Assembly (NCBI RefSeq): GCF_009914755.1
Contig: NC_060944.1
Reading direction: 5' to 3' (one strand)
Length of the DNA stretch: 64,000 nt
Source of the DNA: the human T2T-CHM13v2.0 reference genome, Homo sapiens
Numbering within the stretch: position 1 is the stretch's first letter; every line of letters starts with the position of its first letter. This document shows positions 19,711-55,750 of the stretch, piece after piece. The position numbers and the translations under genes were made by a program. The notes beneath the pieces are model-generated. The model worked only from the letters and a program-made list of their open reading frames with translations. It searched no databases and was not told the origin of the DNA.

Positions 19711-20052
19711 TTGCACCTTCTGTAGGAATTACAAGATTAATTAACTCATCAACGGCAGAACCAGTTAAAGAAGAGGCCAAAACTTCAAATCCAACTTCTT
19801 CACTAACTTCTCTTTCTGTGGCACCAACATTCAGCCCAAATATAACTCTGGGACCCACCTATTTAACCACTGTCAATTCTTCAGACTCTGACAATGGGAC
19901 CACAAGAACAGCAAGCACCAATTCTATAGGCATTACAATTTCACCAAATGGAACGTGGCTTCCAGATAACCAGTTCACGGATGCCAGAACAGAACCCTGG
20001 GAGGGGAATTCCAGCACCGCAGCAACCACTCCAGAAACTTTCCCTCCTTCAG
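19711..20052 (+). CDS. PTPRA: Ectodomain exon (342 nt): Ser/Thr-rich, multiple N-glycosylation sequons
   Basis: Acceptor tttgtAG|TTGCA, donor CAG|GTACTA, phase 1-1. Encodes [14 protein letters not shown]...TPETFPPS with sequons NSS, NIT, NSS, NGT, NGT, NSS (ORF track 19680..20090). Confidence 0.97.
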
Positions 20053-20368
20053 GTACTAGAGATGATTCTGTTTGTTCTTTTGCTCTTTGAGTTTAGTCTT
20101 CCTTTTATTATCTTGTTTGTGTTTTCTAGCCTTAAAATTTCTTCAAATAAGTAAAATTGCTCAAGTGAAGTAATGAAACCTGTATGTGGAATTTTTGGGT
20201 TAGCATGAGTGAAGAGGAAAGAAGAAAGATTCTGGAGAATATCTTTCTGCTAGGTGGGATCCTGGTTAGATTGAGAGGACTTAAATGTGTTTAAAGGTAG
20301 AGAAGAAGGCTTAAAAAGACAAGAGAAATAGAGGAGCTCATTGACGATGCAAGAGACTGAAGATGAAA

Positions 20369-20570
20369 AGATACAGAGAATGAGTAATAAGATTAGGTTT
20401 GGAAAGGGAGGGATCCGTGGAGACCATGGAAAGGAGAATGGGTATTGATGTCCATGACAGTTAGATGTGAGATACAGAGAATGAGTAATAAGATTAGGTT
20501 TGGAAAGGGAGGGATCCATGGAGACCATGGAAAGGAGAATGGACATTGATGTCCATGACAGTTAGATATG
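20369..20570. repeat. Direct tandem duplication, 2 x 101 bp (4 differences)
   Basis: AGATACAGAGAATGAGTAATAAGATTAGGTTTGGAAAGGGAGGGATCC...CCATGACAGTTAGAT starts at 20369 and again at 20470. Confidence 0.95.
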
Positions 20571-21054
20571 GAGTGGCAGGCCAGTGGCCAGGGGTGGCAT
20601 CAGGCTCTGGGAAATGGTTACATTGCAGTGCCAGTTGTTCAGGGCCTCAGGTTGAAGCAGTAGTCCCAAGGAGAAAATCAGAGACGTGGATCTGAGACCA
20701 GGGCAGGTAAGACAAGTTTCTGACCTCTTTGAACCTTAGGTACCTTGTCTGTAAAAGAGGATTAGAGATACCCTCAAAGGGCTTCTATGAGGAGTAAAGG
20801 AAATAATCATTACCTGATTGCTATGTAACTGTCATCCCTTTTCTAGCAAAAATCACTCTTTCCTCTTCTGTGTTCCCAGTTAGATGGTGAGTGCCCCTAA
20901 GCAGAATCACATCTCGCTCATGTGGAACATTCAGGAACTGTTTGCTCAGTTGATTCTCATTTGTTACTACAGATGATATCTTTTACTGCGCCTTATAACT
21001 CAGACCCTTCACCTGCCAGCTTTTCCCCATATTTTCTACCGTAAAGACAAGACA

Positions 21055-21325
21055 GCATTTGCAGTTAAGAGCACAGTCTTCAGTGCCACACTGAGTTTGA
21101 ATCCCAGCTCTTCCATAAACCAGCCATGTTTATGGCATAGCTGGCTTACTTTATCTCTCTACCTCGGTTTGTTCATCTGTGAAACAAGAATGAGTGATAG
21201 TAATAGTTCTTACCTCATAGAGGAGATATTAGGATTAAACAAGTTAATATGGGTAAAGCACTTATAAAGGTGCCTACACATGGTAAGCACTATTTTTAAG
21301 TGTGAGCTGTTAGTATTGTTGTGGT
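21055..21325 (+). mobile_element. MIR
   Basis: GTTAAGAGCACAG...GAGTTTGAATCCCAGCTC...CTCGGTTTGTTCATCTGTGAAA...ACCTCATAG...GTAAAGCACTTA core. Confidence 0.85.
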
Positions 21326-22428
21326 TATTGCTCTGATAGTTACCAGTAAAATATATGAAGGTACCTTTAATGCAGATGGCATCCCACTATTCTTGATGAG
21401 ATAGGGGACTGCAGACAAATAATGTCTGATACTTGCTTTGTGCTTTAGAGTTAATGTAGTTTTGTCATAGTTATTACTGTGTGCTAGGCATCGTACTAAG
21501 AGTTTTCTAGAATAATCCTATGAATTAAGTTCTATTTTATGTTTTATAGGTGAAAGTATTTTACAATGATGAAACCATAATTTGTGGAATGTTTTTCAGT
21601 GTACAGGTCATGACACAATTCATGAAATCACTTTAGCAGGCCACCACTAGTTGTTTGTTTTGTTTTATTTTAATGGATGATCCAGTTCCATGTTTATTCT
21701 TTTAATGTTACATACAATTTTTTGAAATTTTAGTAACAACATAAAATGTTGGGTTGTGGCCATTGCTTAGGGAGAAAGGCAGGATAACTTGTACAAACTG
21801 TATGAGTGAATGGAAAAGGTGGAGACTGTAACACAGGCCTGACTGACTGAACAGCCCATGTTCTATTGTGTACTGTCTTTCATTTAACAGTTCTGTGACA
21901 TGACCATGGATAATCATCTCCTTTTAACAGATGCTTGATTTCAGACTGTATATAGAGGTTAAATGATTTGTTTTAGATCTCAAGGCTGACAAATTAGGCC
22001 TATTTCTCACTTTTGCGGTCTTTCCACTCTGCTTGTAGGGAACTTAGTTTTCCATAAACTGACTTAGGTCCAAATTGTGCCACAGCTAAGAATCTAGTTA
22101 TTGTACATTTAACACAGTTCACGTCATAGGAGGCTGAGACTATGTTTCTCTAGTGGCGTTTATTCAAGATGAGTAAAACACAAGAAACCATTATCGCACA
22201 TGGGAATTTCATAGTCTTAAACCCCACATCCCACTTATCACCACCATTTACCAGTCCTCCTGTAACAGTTACAATTTTTTATTAAATCAGTATTTGATGT
22301 ATATTATTGTAATTATGAAATATTCATTGCTGAGCTATAAGTATAAATGGATTGTTTTTCTTGTACAGTTTTTTTTCTGGATTTAATACTTACCTTATTT
22401 TTTGTTTATTTAGTTTTCTATTTAGTCA

Positions 22429-22734
<306 letters not shown>

Positions 22735-23477
22735 TTACCATGCTCTCCAGAGCCTCTCAAAACAGCTTTCTACAAAGTGAGATCTGTTAGATAATCTATT
22801 TCTTTTTTACCTCTAGAAATTCCTCCTGAGCCCTCCATTGTCTTATTCCAGTCTAGGCTTGTCGATCTCTAGGGCTACTACACAGATACATCAGCCTGAG
22901 ATTTCCCTTCTCTGTCATTCTGGGAATTCCCCTTGCTGCTGCTTCCTGACTTCCATATTGTCTTCCTTTTTGTCTTCTCATCATTCGGTAGATTCCTGAG
23001 AAAAGGGGTCCATGGGAGGCAAATTGCATCCTTACATATCTAAAAATATCTTTAGGGCTGTGCATAGAATTTGAGGAATATTTTTCCCCCAGAATTTTTA
23101 AAGTAATGCCCTAACTGACACCTGTTTACCAGGTTTGGAGGATTTTACTGCTATCTTAATCCCTAATTGTTTGTATGCTTTCTAGGATCTTCTCTTTATC
23201 ATCAGTATCCTGAAATTTCACAGAGATGTATCTTGATGTGGGTCTTTTTCGTTCATTATTATGGATACTTAATAGGCCCTTTAGAGCCTTGATCTTGCAT
23301 TTCTGAAAATTTTCTCCCATTTCTTTGAAACCTTCTCCCCCTCTTCCTTTTTTTTTTTTCTCAAATTCTTAATATTTGGATATTGGATGTATCCTGAATT
23401 AATTCTTTAATCTTTAAAATTTTTCCTTTCTGTTGATCTTTGCTTTGAGTCTTTTTCTCCTTTTAAAAATAAACAAA

Positions 23478-24744
<1,267 letters not shown>

Positions 24745-24749
24745 ACTCC

Positions 24750-28160
<3,411 letters not shown>

Positions 28161-28165
28161 GGCAG

Positions 28166-28635
28166 TTGTATTAGGATGCGCTATAAGCTGCTCTGACAAA
28201 GATACCAAAATTCAGTGACTTAAATAAGACCAAAGTGTCTTTCTCTCCCCAGTTACATTCCAGAGGTAGACAGGGCCTTCGTCTCAGTAGGGACCAAATT
28301 CCTTTCCTCTTGTGGCCCTGCCATCCTAACAATATTGCCCTTATCTGTTTGGTTAGAGATAGTTCTCACCATTGGGTTCTAGTTCCAACCACTGCGAAGG
28401 ACAAACAAAGGGAATAGGGGCCATTTCTCTTCCAAAAGATGTGACCTGGAAGTTACTCACATTGCTTTAGCTCACATCCCGTTGGCTAGAATTCATCACA
28501 TGACCACACCTAGCACAAAGGAGTCTCAAATATAGTCTGCCAGGAGAGCTTGGTGCTCAGCTAAAAAACAAAGGTTCTGTATCAAGGCAAGAAGAGAAAG
28601 AGACTGATCTGAGGGGAGGAGAGTTGGCAGGTTCT
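28166..28635 (-). mobile_element. MLT1-type MaLR LTR
   Basis: TGTATTAGG...GCTGCTCTGACAAA...TCAGTGACTTAAATAA and CATCCCGTTGGCTAGAA...CACATGACCACACCTAG, typical of antisense MLT1. Confidence 0.65.
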
Positions 28636-28701
28636 GTCACAAAACTTCTCGTCATTGTTATTTTTAAGGTATTTTTCCATTTTGGGTTTTTTGTTTGTCT
28701 G

Positions 28702-29447
<746 letters not shown>

Positions 29448-29964
29448 TGATTTTTATTTTCAAATGTTTTCTTACTTTGTCAATTTCTAATTTTATTGCA
29501 TTGGGACAAAAGAATATTGTACTCTTTCTACTGTTGGGGTTTATAAGGGCTGTGGATATTTCACTCGCCTTTGAAAAGAAGGTTTTCTCTGTTAGTCTGT
29601 AGAGTTTGGTATGTACCAATTAGATTTTATTACTTATCATTTTGGTCTTTTGTATCCTTACTTAATTTTGTCCTCTTGAATTTTAATGGAGCAAAAGACA
29701 TAAAGTCCTCTAATAACATGCGTTCTGTTTGCATTCTCATACTTTTTATGAATATTGATGCTGCACTATTTGTGTACCCAGGGAGAAGGCCAGACCACTG
29801 TCCAAAGTTTAGTGAATCTGGGCAGCCTTGTTTCCCAGTTGTTGGAGGATGCCTCATGGAGGAAAGCATTCCTAATCCTGGAGCTTGTTTTGTTGTACTC
29901 TAATTGAATTGTAATGTGTTTCTTTAACCTGAATGAATGTTTCTATTTTTTACTTATTACACAG

Positions 29965-29991
29965 GTAATTCTGACTCGAAGGACAGAAGAG
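29965..29991 (+). CDS. PTPRA: Alternative 27-nt microexon adding GNSDSKDRR (long vs short RPTP-alpha isoform)
   Basis: Acceptor ttattacacAG, donor GAG|GTGAGC, symmetric phase 1-1. Matches the known 9-aa extracellular juxtamembrane insert. Confidence 0.93.
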
Positions 29992-31746
29992 GTGAGCTGC
30001 TCACCTTATATCTGTTGTTCCTTTTACACAGTGTACAGTATTCATTTATTTCCTCTGCTCACAGTCTGTGGTAACCGTGTGCATCTGTGGCTGTGTTGTT
30101 TGTTTACTTTCCCTTAAGTTATTTCCATGTTAATCTCATGGAGAAGAGCAATAGAAACAAGTACTGTATTCAGTATGTTTTTTAATATAGACTATGGATT
30201 CTAACAGCTATGATGTATTTTAACAAGTAACAAAATATATCTTACTTTGACATGTCACTTTGTTAACATTACTTTTTGGTGATATTAGGTCATAATTTCT
30301 ATACCATTAGTTACTTCTGATTTCTAGGCCACAGTTCCCTTTAAATATTCTTTGTGTTGTTTTTCCCCTAGTGTATAAAATGTCAACCCTTTGTGGCTTT
30401 ATATGGATTTTATGGATTTTCAGCCCTTAAATGTAAAGTCTCTATGGCCTGAGATGTTGTGTCTGTGGTTTAAGCTGGACTGCTGAGTCCCTGGTCACTA
30501 GAGAGTAGGGGGACATGGGTACTTGTCTGCAGAAGTGTGGCACATTTTGCCTAGAATGACAGTAAGGCTGCTATCAAAGAGCATGAGAGAAAGAGAAAGA
30601 GATCATCTAACATTCTAAGAAGTGATTATTACATTTGAGTTTTAAAAATGTTACTATTCGAAGCAGTGTTTTTATCATAATTTTCTATTTTATCAAATCA
30701 GACTTGAGTTTTTTTTCTGATTCTGTTATTTAACCATACACAATTTTCCCTGTGTAATTAAGTAATGGAACACTTGGAGGCATATGAAGTCCCACTAAGT
30801 AGGGAGCATTTGAGTCAGAAAAGTGGGTACTCTCTTCCTTTATGTGATGTCCATCTGCCATTGTATTTGGTAAGGAATAGTGAGGTGTTACCATACTGTG
30901 TACAGATTTCCCTCACTTTTCCACCTCTCACTTTCCTAAACTTGGGAACTAAACATTGGATTAATACAGTGTCTTTGCTGTTCAGATTCACTTGCCAGAT
31001 TTTATCAAATGTAGACTTAAATAGGTTTTATTGTGATAGATATTTACTTGCTCCCTAAAACTGCTCTCTTAACCAGCCTTACAATAAAGTCAAAAGTCAA
31101 AGTGGTAGGCTTCAAGATGAAACATAAGATCTGTTGACTCCTTCCTCTATTTAGTATATATTTTCATAATATTCAGCCTTTTCTTGCCCCAGATATCATA
31201 TCTATTTTACCTACCCAATATTTAAGTAGTTTCCATGTTGTGATTAAGAAAACAAAATTACCATAATTACCTAGATTATTGCTAATTGTGACATATGTAA
31301 AGTCTATTAATGTAATAAATCTCCTTTCTTAAGTCAAAAAATAATTTTGTGTAATTCCAAACAGGAAACTGAAAAGGCATAGGTATTCTCAGCAGTCTCT
31401 AAAGTCCCAAAATCTAATGGCAATTTTACCAGAGCAGATCTTTAGAAGTATTGCTATAAATTTGGATATCCCATTCTAATTTTAAGCCAAATGCTTTTTG
31501 AGAAATAAGCCAGCTGTTTGGAAATGCTTGTATTATAATCGGTTTGATAAGCAGTTATGTCTTATGCAGATGAATTAGGGGCTACCTGTTTTTATGCACT
31601 GGTCTTTGGGGTGCTTTTGAACAGTAGTGTCTGATGTTTTAATTGTCAAAGCAAAAAGAAATGAGAGGGAGGGCAACTTTTCTTCCTCTTCTGAAGTCCA
31701 GGAAACTGGTTATTTTCTCATGCATATTATTTTAAAATATATTCCA

Positions 31747-37219: not shown

Positions 37220-40200
37220 ATCCATTGTTTGTTTTGTGCCTGTTATGTGTGAGACCCTGTGCTAGGTTTTAGGTGTACAGTGAGAATGAAGCAGACATGT
37301 AATCCTTGCTCTTGTGGAATTTATGCTATAAAGGAGGGATATTCATTAATCAACAAAGTCAAATATGTAATTATAAAGTGTGAGAGGTATTATCAAGGAA
37401 AATAATAAGGTCCTTGCCTTACAAAAATAGTATAGGAAATAACAGCAAATTTTTTTTTTTTTTTGAGACAGAGTCTCGCTCTATTGCCCAGGCTGAAGTG
37501 CAGTGGCGCAATCTCGGCTCACTACAACCTCTGCCCCCCAGGTTCAAGCGATTCTCCTGCCTCAGCCTCCTAAGTAGCTGAGATTACAGGCATGTGCCAC
37601 CACACCTGGCTAATTTTTTTTGTATTTTTAGTAGAGATGGGGTTTCACCATGTTGGCCAAGCTGGTCTCGAATTCTTGACCTCATGATCTGCCCACCTCG
37701 GCTTCCCAAAGTGCTGGGATTGCAGGCGTGAGCCACTGTGCCTGGCCGTAACAGCTAAAATGAAGTACACACTGTGTGCTAGTTACTGTGCCAACAACTT
37801 TACATGAAAGATCTCATTTAATACGCAGAATAACTTATTTCAGAAATGAGGAAACTGAGACTTATGATCCTAATTTAGTATTAGGAAGTCAGAGAAGACC
37901 TGTGTGGGAAAAGTGACACACAGAGAACCAGACAAGTAGGAGATAACCAGGCAAAGAACAGAGAGAGGCTGTGTAAAGCAGAAGGAATAACATGCTCAAA
38001 GGCCTGAGGATGAATGAATGAAAGCATGGAAGGACACCAGTGGCTGAAATTGAGTGAGCAAGGAAAGAGTGCAAGAGATAGGGCAGGTAGGGGCTAAATC
38101 GAGGGGGTTGTTAGAGTCCAGGATAAGGAGATTAGATTTCATTCTGAGGCATGAGAAACTGTTGGAGGGTTTTACCTAAGAGTGGGACACAACCTGAGTT
38201 GCTTTCCTAGAGATCACTCTGCTTTGTGGAGAATGGATTGGCAGGGGCAGAGGCTTACTGTGATCCAGGTGAGAGAGGATGGAGGTTGGGACTACACTGG
38301 TGGCAATAAAAAAAATGCAAAAAAAAAAAAAAAAAAAGGCAGACAGATTTGAAGTTTTAGATATATCTCCAAAATATATTATTTGCAGCTGTGCTAGATA
38401 TAGAAGATAAGTGTGAGGAAGAAATCAAGGGGGTTTCCACATTTCTTACTTGAGCAACAGGGTGGGTTGGAGTACTAGCTACTGAATGGTGAGGGAAAGG
38501 TTTTAAACACAGAAAGCTTGTGTTGCCTATGAAATTTAAAGTGGAGGTGGCAAATAGGCAGTTGAGAATCTGGAACTCAGAAAAGAGGTCTGATCAAGCA
38601 AAGCAACTGTGGGAATTGCTAGCATGGCATTTATATTTACAGTCATCTCTCTGATCAGATTAACTAGATATAGAGAAGAGTGCCAAGGACAGAGCCCTGA
38701 GGAATTCCCACATTTAGAGATCTGGTGTTGGAAGAGGAACAGATAGTGAGGGAAACTGAGATGGGCAGACGAGATAGAAGGAAAATCAGAGGAGTGTTTC
38801 GTTGTGGAAAGCTAAGAGAGGAAAGTGCTTCAGAGAGGAAGGAGTGATCAGCCAGTCTGAACACTCATTTTAAGGTGAGAGCCACATACCACAGTATGTT
38901 TGAAACTTACCATTAACAAAGAAGCGTCATGTAATGTCTTCCATCTCTAAAAACAAAACCAAAAAAAACCCATCTGTCCACCTCACTCACATCTCCCTCC
39001 ATCTGTCATTCCTTTCCTCTGCATCCCTTAATGTTAAAAGTCCCCACGAAAGGACCCAGTGTCTCACTGTCCTTTTTCTATCTTTATTTCACTCCATTTA
39101 GGCTTTCTCACCCATATTCAACTGAAAATACTCTTGGAAAGGTCACCAGTAGCCACCGTCTTGTCAAATCTGGTTTCACTTCTCTGTCTCATCCTTCTTA
39201 AGTCTGTAGGCAGTATTTGATTGAATTGATTGCTCCCTCCTTGAAAAACTCTGCTCTTGGCTTCTATGACACTACATTCTTAGATTAACCTCTCACCTCA
39301 TGGCTACTGCTTATGGGTCAGTTTAGCTTTTAACAGAATGTAAATCCAGTTATATATCTCCTCTGTTCAAAGCCCTTCGATGACATAGTGTTTCTCATCA
39401 CACTCAGAATTAAATCCACAATCATTACAATGGACTCCCAAGTCCTAAGTCTGCTGGCTTTTGCCCACCTCTCTGGCATCTTATATTGAACTGGCCTTTG
39501 TGCTGTTTCTTGAACCTGCCAAGCTCCTGAGAGCTACCATGCTTGCTGTTCCCAGTGTCTAGAAAGCTCTTCACCCAGATCTTTGCGTGGTTCACTTCAC
39601 GTTATTTAGAGCTCTGCTTGTATATTACTTCCTCAGAGAGACCTTCCCAGACCACTGTATCACTGCTCCCCAACCTGTCACTTTCTCTCTCCCCACCCTG
39701 CTTTTTATTCCTCATAGCACTTGTCCCTGTCTAAAATTAAGTATTGACTTGTTTATAAACAGTGTCTTCCTTCCTCCCCACAGAATGGAAGCTTTCTATC
39801 ACTTGTCTCCTTGAACACTTCTCTGTTCCTAGTGTCTCAAACAATGGCATGCAATTGCTGGCCCACAGATATTTGAATGAATGCTGCTAAAAGGTTGAAT
39901 CAGATGAGGATGGGAATGTTCCTGTTGGATTTGGCAATATGCCATTTGTTGGTGTTCTGGCTGAGCAGTTTAAACAGAGCACTGAGGGTGGGAGTCAGGG
40001 CAAATAGATTAAGGAGAACCTGAAGGTAAGGAATTAGACAAGACGAATTAGACAACTGTGTTTCGGAAAGTCAGCTGAGAAGAGAGACGCGAGGCTGGTG
40101 GTAGCTGGGGGAGGGTAAATGAGGTCAAGAAGACAAGTCTTTGAGTTGACAGCAGTGGATGTAATCCAGAGCACACATGACAGGATGGAAGAGACTTGTC

Positions 40201-41514: not shown

Positions 41515-41599
41515 ATGAGACACCAATTATTGCGGTGATGGTGGCCCTGTCCTCTCTGCTAGTGATCGTGTTTATTATCATAGTTTTGTACATGTTAAG
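41515..41599 (+). CDS. PTPRA: Transmembrane exon DETPIIAVMVALSSLLVIVFIIIVLYMLR
   Basis: Acceptor gatttcAG, donor AAG|GTGAGC. 85 nt, phase 1-2, long hydrophobic stretch. Confidence 0.97.
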
Positions 41600-42781: not shown

Positions 42782-42855
42782 GTTTAAGAAATACAAGCAA
42801 GCTGGGAGCCATTCCAATTCTTTCCGCTTATCCAACGGCCGCACTGAGGATGTGG
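42782..42855 (+). CDS. PTPRA: Cytoplasmic juxtamembrane exon [24 protein letters not shown]
   Basis: Acceptor tctcattAG, donor TGG|GTAAGG. 74 nt, phase 2-1. Confidence 0.97.

Positions 42856-53499: not shown

Positions 53500-55750
<2,251 letters not shown>

What the first reader, a model, noticed from the sequence alone, without database searches (positions are those of the whole stretch)
29955..29997. The microexon begins with a regenerated 5' splice site: candidate recursive-splicing isoform switch
Seen: the acceptor is immediately followed by GTAATT (acAG|GTAATT). The upstream exon ends in CAG, so after the first splice the junction reads CAG|GTAATT. This is closer to the CAG|GTRAGT consensus than the upstream exon's own donor (CAG|GTACTA). 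Re-splicing from it to 41515 gives exactly the short isoform. The site splits a 21.5-kb interval into 9.9 and 11.5 kb. Established: RS-exons are removed when the reconstituted donor outcompetes the exon's own donor, and the exon junction complex suppresses this. Inference: the long/short RPTP-alpha choice may be made by recursive splicing rather than direct skipping.
Basis: partly seen in the sequence, partly recalled or inferred. Interest (0 to 1): 0.75.

Follow-up and report, generated by a model that had tools for sequence, protein, structure and literature searches.

The report
PTPRA microexon starts with donor-like GT
The 27-base alternative exon of the human PTPRA gene really does begin with a sequence that could act as a second splice donor once the exon is joined to its neighbour, which places it in an already described class of exons, but nothing available here shows that this is how the cell chooses between the long and short protein.

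Summary
The exon 29965-29991 starts with GTAATT. The upstream exon ends in CAG. The junction therefore reads CAG|GTAATT, and re-splicing from it to 41515 would give exactly the short isoform.

This 9-mer has a published MaxEnt score of 8.55. That is above the 5.52 cut-off by which Blazquez et al. 2018 define "putative RS-exons". The class covers 3.6% of human exons, 93.8% of them constitutive, and that paper already proposes recursive splicing as a route to physiological exon skipping.

On paper it is about as strong as the recursive site. However, it lies in a predicted 8-bp hairpin.

I found no direct evidence for or against recursive splicing at this exon. One catalogue excludes annotated exons by design, and PTPRA is absent from the lariat tables I could read. 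Ordinary default skipping of a very short exon remains the more likely mechanism.

Verdict: a new member of a known kind, with the mechanism untested. Interest is modest.

The parts
19711..20052 (+). Upstream coding exon (342 nt). It ends in CAG, and its own donor CAG|gtactaga is weak.
   Evidence: 6/9 match to the consensus, U1 duplex -7.1 kcal/mol.
29942..29964 (+). Acceptor region of the microexon: polypyrimidine tract and CAG. The nearest upstream AG is at -83.
   Evidence: 15/20 pyrimidines at -23..-4; branch-point-like motifs at -62, -38, -13 and -9.
29965..29991 (+). 27-nt alternative exon that encodes the GNSDSKDRR insert. Its 3' half is purine-rich.
   Evidence: the insert is conserved in mammalian protein models.
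29965..29970 (+). GTAATT, the intron-side half of the candidate recursive donor. With the upstream CAG it forms CAG|GTAATT. The same 9-mer is already contiguous in the unspliced RNA at 29962-29970.
   Evidence: 8/9 match, -8.1 kcal/mol; MaxEnt 8.55 for cagGtaatt in PMC8085517 Table 3.
29989..29997 (+). The microexon's own donor, GAG|GTGAGC. This is the competitor of the recursive donor.
   Evidence: 7/9 match, -9.7 kcal/mol. Donor score 87.02 for GAGgtgagc against 87.83 for CAGgtaatt in the PMC7175933 table.
29978..30020 (+). Predicted hairpin that buries the microexon's own donor. The apical 8 bp pair 29989-29996 with 30000-30007, and the loop is 29997-29999.
   Evidence: -10.6 kcal/mol, z -3.2, 3 of 200 shuffles as good; the extended stem is -21.6 kcal/mol, 1 of 200; perfect 8-nt inverted repeat; unpaired probability 0.12.
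41515..41599 (+). Downstream exon (start of the transmembrane segment). Its acceptor is the target of both direct skipping and the proposed second step.
38873..38880 (+). Published candidate recursive site in the same interval (AAG|GTGAGA), with junction reads from the exon that ends at 20052.
   Evidence: Zhang 2018 S1 and S2 tables, hg19 chr20:2964770. I mapped it to the window by its offset from the microexon and confirmed the sequence.

Best explanation
The 27-nt PTPRA exon is a sequence-qualified 'putative RS-exon' in the sense of Blazquez et al. 2018. Once it is joined to the upstream exon, the junction CAG|GTAATT is a competent donor. I think the long/short choice is nevertheless most likely made mainly at the stage of exon recognition. 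A 27-nt exon is hard to define, and here its own donor is predicted to be locked in a hairpin. In most cells it would therefore simply be missed, and the 20052 donor would be spliced across the interval to 41515. Some transcripts use another intronic intermediate at 38875. In brain and muscle, factors that open or activate the exon's own donor would give inclusion. Recursive re-splicing from the junction donor is possible and may remove the exon from some transcripts that had first included it. I rate it a contributor, not the switch. Shown here: the sequence anatomy, the splice-site strengths and the predicted hairpin. Inferred: which route the transcripts take.
For: The anatomy is confirmed. 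The junction donor is above the published cut-off (8.55 against 5.52), but 93.8% of such exons are constitutive because the EJC represses the site. On paper the own donor is about as strong as the junction donor. It is predicted to be 88% paired within a hairpin that 3 of 200 shuffles match. That would weaken exon definition whichever route is used. HEK293T cDNA yielded the short form (PMC9333306, passages seen). In PA1 and a second cell line, junction reads link 20052 directly to 38875. This shows the 20052 donor does reach past the microexon. Blazquez reports that EIF4A3 and MAGOH mRNA levels are lower in brain and muscle. That predicts more recursive skipping in those tissues. By my recollection of Kapp et al. 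2007 (only its citation was seen), those are the tissues where the long form is found. The softshell turtle has long and short protein models with the insert GLGRR. Its codons (GGN then CTN or TTR) cannot give a purine at donor position +3, so alternative use of this exon there does not need a good junction donor.
Against: The features that Blazquez links to recursive skipping are all present: a strong acceptor, an effectively weakened own donor, and time for the upstream intron to be spliced first. That paper also shows that raising junction-donor strength causes skipping even with the EJC present, and 8.55 is a strong site. The usual neuronal-microexon signals were not found: no GCATG within 300 nt and no TGC nearer than -115. 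The ordinary regulated-definition model therefore has no identified activator here. The hairpin is only a prediction, and the constitutive donor at 42855 has a similar predicted pairing (0.11). The turtle entries are gene models, not transcripts.
Confidence: 0.55

Rival explanations
1. The microexon's acceptor is used in most or all cells. The exon is then removed in a second step from the reconstituted donor CAG|GTAATT to 41515. The isoform ratio is set by competition between that donor and the exon's own hairpin-buried donor 27 nt downstream, under repression by the EJC.
For: The junction donor has MaxEnt 8.55, an 8/9 match, and a predicted unpaired probability of 0.37-0.54 in the part-spliced RNA, against 0.12 for the own donor. 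The acceptor is strong. The mechanism and its EJC control are established for other exons, including physiological skipping. The first insert residue is Gly in mammals, birds and a turtle, as a GGT codon requires.
Against: There is no direct read-out. PTPRA is not among the 287 high-confidence RS-lariats of Blazquez Table S6. It is also absent from the 3 supplementary files of Hoppe 2023 and the 2 of Duan 2024. All of these have low power. Most such exons are constitutive. The tissue pattern runs opposite to EJC dosage (plus recall). Gly conservation also follows from the generic preference for G after an acceptor, and it says nothing about the wobble T. When two donors lie close together and both are bound, the downstream one is usually used (recalled, not checked here).
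Confidence: 0.27
2. Decoy or dual-specific site. In the unspliced RNA the sequence is already CAG|GTAATT (29962-29970). U1 bound there could clash with recognition of the acceptor AG and so silence the microexon. This gives direct skipping that still depends on the GT.
For: The 9-mer is contiguous in the window before any splicing. AGGT sites that can act as either splice site are described, and they are 4.7-fold under-represented at annotated acceptors. That fits a cost of carrying one (Duan 2024 abstract).
Against: There are no data on U1 occupancy here. Many exons with such starts are spliced constitutively.
Confidence: 0.1
3. Coding by-product. GTAATT exists only because the conserved peptide starts Gly-Asn-Ser (GGT AAT TCT), and it plays no part in splicing choice.
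For: Gly-Asn fixes G, A and A at donor positions +1, +3 and +4. GNS is conserved in 15 mammalian and 17 avian long-form models. Only the wobble T at +2 is free. GT-start exons are common: 3 of 11 in this window.
Against: A donor of MaxEnt 8.55 at a junction is found in at most 1.7-3.6% of exons. Functional pseudoexon donors with this exact 9-mer exist in DMD, so the site is unlikely to be inert if exposed.
Confidence: 0.08

Closest known systems
Annotated 'putative RS-exons' repressed by the exon junction complex (Blazquez et al. 2018, Mol Cell, PMC6224609)
   Same: It is an annotated internal exon that begins with GT. Its junction with the preceding exon scores above the paper's MaxEnt cut-off of 5.52 (8.55). 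It has a strong acceptor, and its upstream intron is likely to be removed first. The paper already states that incomplete repression gives physiological alternative splicing.
   Different: This exon is alternative, whereas 93.8% of the class is constitutive. It is only 27 nt long, so the two competing donors are 27 nt apart. Its own donor is predicted to sit in a hairpin. No EJC sensitivity, PRPF8 crosslinking or lariat has been shown for it.
Intronic recursive splice sites of long vertebrate introns (Sibley et al. 2015, recalled and cited; Zhang et al. 2018, PMC6110456)
   Same: It has the AG|GT motif and a strong acceptor, lies in the middle of a long (21.5-kb) interval, and is followed by an 'RS-exon' with its own donor.
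   Different: Those catalogues deliberately exclude annotated splice sites and cassette exons. The interval is short next to the sawtooth introns (median 328.9 kb). Zhang's own candidate in this interval is a different site, at window 38874|38875.
Dual-specific AGGT splice sites (Duan et al. 2024, PMC10809524)
   Same: The same AGGT can in principle serve as acceptor and as donor.
   Different: That work concerns mostly unannotated intronic sites and the UBC repeat array. PTPRA is not in its 2 readable supplementary files.
Neuronal microexons defined by SRRM4/nSR100 (Irimia et al. 2014, recalled; mentioned)
   Same: The length of 27 nt is at the upper limit of the class, the insert is in frame and conserved, and inclusion is reported in brain (recalled).
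   Different: No UGC lies close upstream of the acceptor and there is no GCAUG within 300 nt. A full-text search for PTPRA together with 'microexon' found no paper.
Donor-sequestering hairpins that tune exon inclusion (MAPT exon 10, SMN2 exon 7 TSL2; recalled)
   Same: A local stem covers positions -3 to +5 of the donor of an alternative exon.
   Different: It is predicted only. It has not been tested for conservation or function, and a constitutive donor in the same window has similar predicted pairing.

Membership tests
Putative RS-exon (Blazquez 2018) | Annotated internal exon whose junction with the preceding exon reconstitutes a 5' splice site with MaxEntScan >= 5.52 | tested here: met
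   The junction is CAG|GTAATT. MaxEnt is 8.55 for the same 9-mer in PMC8085517 Table 3. I did not run MaxEntScan myself.
Putative RS-exon (Blazquez 2018) | Skipping increases when EIF4A3, RBM8A or MAGOH is depleted | not testable with these tools
   No RNA-seq access. Tables S1-S4 of the paper are in a PDF that could not be read. A search for PTPRA plus EIF4A3 gave 20 papers, and by their titles the 15 listed are mostly circRNA papers and reviews. I opened one; it only lists PTPRA in gene tables.
Putative RS-exon (Blazquez 2018) | Spliceosome assembly on the junction donor, or a lariat whose 5' end is the first base of the exon | tested here: inconclusive
   PTPRA is absent from Table S6 (287 high-confidence lariat pairings) and from Hoppe 2023's 3 supplementary files. 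Lariat reads are rare, so absence carries little weight.
Putative RS-exon (Blazquez 2018) | Upstream intron removed before the downstream intron; stronger acceptor and weaker own donor | tested here: inconclusive
   The acceptor has 15/20 pyrimidines and CAG. The own donor is strong on paper but predicted to be paired. Splicing order cannot be measured here.
Intronic recursive splice site (Zhang 2018 pipeline) | AGGT in an intron >= 5 kb with acceptor strength >= 5 and PhastCons >= 0.5 | tested here: inconclusive
   The AGGT motif and intron length are met. The acceptor MaxEnt and PhastCons values were not obtainable.
Intronic recursive splice site (Zhang 2018 pipeline) | No overlap with any annotated splice site or cassette exon | tested here: not met
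   The site is the acceptor of an annotated exon. The pipeline removes such sites, and the S1 table rows for this intron list 2951284 and 2964770 only.
SRRM4-type neuronal microexon | Length 3-27 nt | tested here: met
   27 nt. The length definition is recalled.
SRRM4-type neuronal microexon | UGC-containing enhancer just upstream of the acceptor | tested here: not met
   The nearest upstream TGC is at -115. The motif definition is recalled.
Donor-sequestering hairpin | A stable local stem that includes the donor, beyond the composition-matched expectation | tested here: met
   -10.6 kcal/mol, z -3.2, 3 of 200 shuffles. Perfect 8-nt inverted repeat. Accessibility lies in the lowest ~5% of 400 random GT sites.
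Donor-sequestering hairpin | Conservation or compensatory change of the stem, and an effect on inclusion | not testable with these tools
   No vertebrate genomic DNA other than this window is available.

The most novel reading that the evidence does not exclude
The PTPRA long/short choice is made after the first splice, on the part-spliced RNA. Two donors 27 nt apart compete: the exposed junction donor CAG|GTAATT and the exon's own donor held in an 8-bp hairpin. Tissue factors that open or stabilise that hairpin, rather than EJC dosage, would decide whether the microexon is kept or recursively removed. This would be a structure-gated recursive-splicing switch for a conserved receptor isoform.
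Probability: 0.15. Interest if true: 0.6.

Novelty: new member of a known kind. Interest (0 to 1): 0.3.

Why it matters
The nine-residue insert sits next to the membrane in the ectodomain of RPTP-alpha, a Src activator, and the two isoforms differ in signalling read-outs (PMC9333306). If recursive splicing set the ratio, PTPRA would be a concrete, conserved, protein-coding example of that mechanism producing a tissue-regulated isoform. EJC insufficiency would then be expected to shift RPTP-alpha isoforms. The class and the idea are already published, and about 1 human exon in 30 shares the defining feature. The finding therefore adds a candidate, not a concept.

Tried and rejected
Literature:
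- A full-text search for PTPRA plus 'recursive splicing' found one paper, and the co-occurrence is incidental: a gene list and a reference.
- PTPRA plus 'microexon' found no paper.
- PTPRA plus EIF4A3 found 20 papers. By their titles the 15 listed are mostly circRNA papers and reviews. I opened one, and it only lists PTPRA in gene tables.
- The search for the isoforms' tissue pattern did not reach Kapp et al. 2007. That paper and Wong et al. 2018 and Sibley et al. 2015 are not held.

Splice-site scores:
- MaxEnt scores for GAGGTGAGC and CAGGTACTA were not found.
- For those two sites I rely on match counts, U1 duplex energies and one published donor-score table whose scoring tool I did not identify.

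Other checks:
- Rfam gave only a sub-threshold chance hit over the hairpin (17.7 bits against a gathering score of 62).
- Nucleotide-level conservation of the GT and of the hairpin could not be tested, because no vertebrate DNA other than the window is reachable. Only protein models were compared.
- Earlier findings of this scan were not open to the session.

Full report
**What is in the sequence**

The window shows ...ttattacacag|GTAATTCTGACTCGAAGGACAGAAGAG|gtgagctg at 29965-29991. The upstream exon ends ...CCTTCAG|gtactaga at 20052. The next exon starts ttcag|ATGAG at 41515.

Joining the annotated coding exons in a script gives open frames with and without the 27-nt exon. The junction is in phase 1, so G|GT encodes Gly. 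The long form reads FPPS-GNSDSKDRR-DETPIIA and the short form FPPS-DETPIIA.

The interval 20053-41514 is 21,462 nt. It is divided into 9,912 and 11,523 nt.

**How strong are the three donors**

| Donor | Match to CAG\|GTRAGT | Predicted U1 duplex |
|---|---|---|
| Junction donor CAG\|GTAATT | 8/9 | -8.1 kcal/mol |
| Upstream exon's own donor CAG\|GTACTA | 6/9 | -7.1 kcal/mol |
| Microexon's own donor GAG\|GTGAGC | 7/9, including the +5 G | -9.7 kcal/mol |

- I could not run MaxEntScan. A published table gives MaxEnt 8.55 for cagGtaatt, where it is the donor of a pathogenic DMD pseudoexon (PMC8085517, Table 3 passage).
- A review table of DMD pseudoexons gives donor scores of 87.83 for CAG|gtaatt and 87.02 for GAG|gtgagc (PMC7175933, table passages). 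I did not identify the scoring tool.
- MaxEnt values for the other two 9-mers were not found.

It is not the relevant one, however. After the first splice, the competitor is the microexon's own donor, and on paper the two are about equal.

**Is this more than chance**

- Three of the 11 annotated exons in this window begin with GT. Only this one yields a good junction donor. The other GT-start junction among consecutive exons, AAG|GTTTAA, matches 4/9.
- Blazquez et al. 2018 (PMC6224609; sections 8, 10, 14, 17 and 42 read, plus passages) define a putative RS-exon as one whose junction scores at least 5.52. This covers 3.6% of human exons (6,837), of which 93.8% are constitutive. A stricter cut-off gives 1.7%.
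- Duan et al. 2024 (abstract) report that AGGT dual-specific sites are 4.7-fold under-represented at annotated acceptors.
- The feature is therefore uncommon but far from unique.
- Within the 21.5-kb interval there are 98 AGGT sites, and 10 would give at least 8/9. Only 29965 also has YAG and at least 14/20 pyrimidines. That simply reflects its being a real acceptor.

**What is already known**

Blazquez et al. show three things:
- the EJC deposited by the first splice blocks the junction donor;
- raising junction-donor strength causes skipping even with the EJC present;

What would be new is its application to PTPRA.

- Full-text searches for PTPRA with 'recursive splicing' found one incidental paper. 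With 'microexon' they found none.
- PTPRA is not in Blazquez Table S6, which holds 287 lariat pairings. It is also absent from the 3 supplementary files of Hoppe et al. 2023 and the 2 of Duan et al. 2024.
- Tables S1-S4 of Blazquez are in a PDF I could not read. They may name validated exons.
- Zhang et al. 2018 (PMC6110456; passages and S1/S2 tables) removed every site that overlaps an annotated splice site or cassette exon. This exon could not appear there.
- Their tables do list a candidate recursive site in the same interval, at hg19 chr20:2964770. It has junction reads from the exon ending at 20052 in PA1 cells: 15, 23, 82 and 12 total reads at 120 min, 4 h, 16 h and steady state. A second cell line shows 7 and 9 reads.
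- By offset from the microexon this site is window 38874|38875. The sequence there is ttttaag|gtgagag.
- So the 20052 donor does reach past the microexon to another intermediate.

The microexon's own donor lies in a perfect 8-nt inverted repeat, AGGTGAGC/GCTCACCT.
- As RNA it folds into an 8-bp stem with a 3-nt loop covering donor positions -3 to +5. The energy is -10.6 kcal/mol, z -3.2, and 3 of 200 shuffles fold as well.
- An extended stem spans 29978-30020 at -21.6 kcal/mol, with 1 of 200 shuffles as good.
- The predicted unpaired probability of the own donor is 0.12 in all contexts tried. For the junction donor in the part-spliced RNA it is 0.37-0.54.
- The value 0.12 lies in the lowest ~5% of 400 random GT sites in the window. 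The constitutive donor at 42855 scores 0.11, however, so predicted pairing does not by itself prevent use.
- The hairpin cuts both ways. It would help the junction donor win a competition. It would also weaken definition of a 27-nt exon in the first place.

**Regulatory context**

- The acceptor has 15/20 pyrimidines and a long AG-free zone, with the nearest upstream AG at -83.
- There is no GCATG within 300 nt on either side and no TGC nearer than -115. The usual neuronal-microexon signals, as I recall them, are therefore absent.
- HEK293T cDNA yielded the short form (PMC9333306 passages).
- By my recollection of Kapp et al. 2007, the long form is found in brain, skeletal muscle and differentiating cells. 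That paper is not held, and only its citation was seen.
[quoted passage not shown] This would predict more recursive skipping there, the opposite of the recalled pattern.
- If recursive splicing operates here, EJC dosage is not the switch.

**Conservation at the protein level**

Two protein searches returned 129 vertebrate PTPRA models. Sorting them on the sequence before the DETPIIAV anchor gave the following:

| Group | Models |
|---|---|
| Mammalian long (GNSD..RR) | 15 |
| Mammalian short | 18 |
| Avian long (GNSDRR) | 17 |
| Avian short | 7 |
| Other tetrapod ending in RR | 19 |
| Other (fish, some frogs, evident model artefacts) | 27 |
| No anchor | 26 |

- In the three lineages where long and short models sit side by side, the insert starts with Gly, as GGT requires. 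These are mammals, birds and the softshell turtle (GLGRR against none).
- Gly also follows from the generic G after an acceptor, and the wobble T cannot be seen in proteins.
- In the turtle, Leu after Gly puts a pyrimidine at donor position +3. A good junction donor is therefore not needed for this exon to be alternative there, if the models are right.
- Nucleotide conservation could not be tested.

**Verdict**

The exon is a member, by sequence, of a known and numerous class. Whether recursive splicing sets the PTPRA isoform ratio cannot be decided with these tools. My estimates are:
- about 0.55 for ordinary regulated definition with mostly direct skipping;
- 0.27 for recursive splicing as a substantial route;
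- 0.10 for a decoy or occlusion effect of the same GT;
- 0.08 for a pure coding by-product.

The proposed GGT>GGA/GGC mutation would not separate the second and third readings. A part-spliced reporter, lariats starting at 29965, or nascent-RNA junction counts would. Interest is modest (0.3). The boldest reading still open is a structure-gated competition between two donors 27 nt apart on the part-spliced RNA.

Noticed in passing
window 29978-30020: The microexon's own donor is buried in a predicted hairpin built on a perfect 8-nt inverted repeat (AGGTGAGC/GCTCACCT). The apical stem is -10.6 kcal/mol, and 3 of 200 shuffles fold as well. The loop and adjoining stem base read UGCU (29998-30001), a YGCY motif.
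   Followed up: partly
window 38873-38880: A published candidate recursive site (Zhang 2018, hg19 chr20:2964770) maps here as ttttaag|gtgagag. It has junction reads from the exon ending at 20052 in two cell lines. It could equally be the start of an unannotated cassette exon.
   Followed up: partly
window 54081-54175: This alternative exon of other transcripts begins with GTTTTT. By exon counting it is probably the conserved '94-nt' poison exon 8a of PTPRA reported in EJC-bound RNA by Kovalak et al. 2021 (PMC8091538, passages). The annotation gives 95 nt.
   Followed up: partly
window 42782-42855: This constitutive exon also begins with GT (GTTTAA), but its junction AAG|GTTTAA matches the donor consensus at only 4/9. 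In all, 3 of the 11 annotated exons in the window start with GT.
   Followed up: yes
window 20053-29964: The upstream intron is 9,912 nt here (T2T) but 10,012 nt in the hg19 coordinates of Zhang 2018. There is therefore a 100-bp length difference between the assemblies somewhere in this intron.
   Followed up: no
window 29983-29991 and orthologous protein models P0035-P0097: The insert ends in a dibasic Arg-Arg directly before the membrane-proximal DETPIIAV in mammals, birds, reptiles and several amphibians, while its interior varies. The fish models lack it. The RR could be a processing or shedding site. This is speculation.
   Followed up: no
protein P0028 (pig model): One pig model carries a 4-residue insert, GTRD, in place of GNSDSKDRR. 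It is probably a different donor choice or a gene-model error.
   Followed up: no
window 20050-20058: The 342-nt exon's own donor CAG|GTACTA is the weakest consensus match among the coding-exon donors that begin with CAG in this window (6/9). It has to pair across either 9.9 or 21.5 kb.
   Followed up: partly
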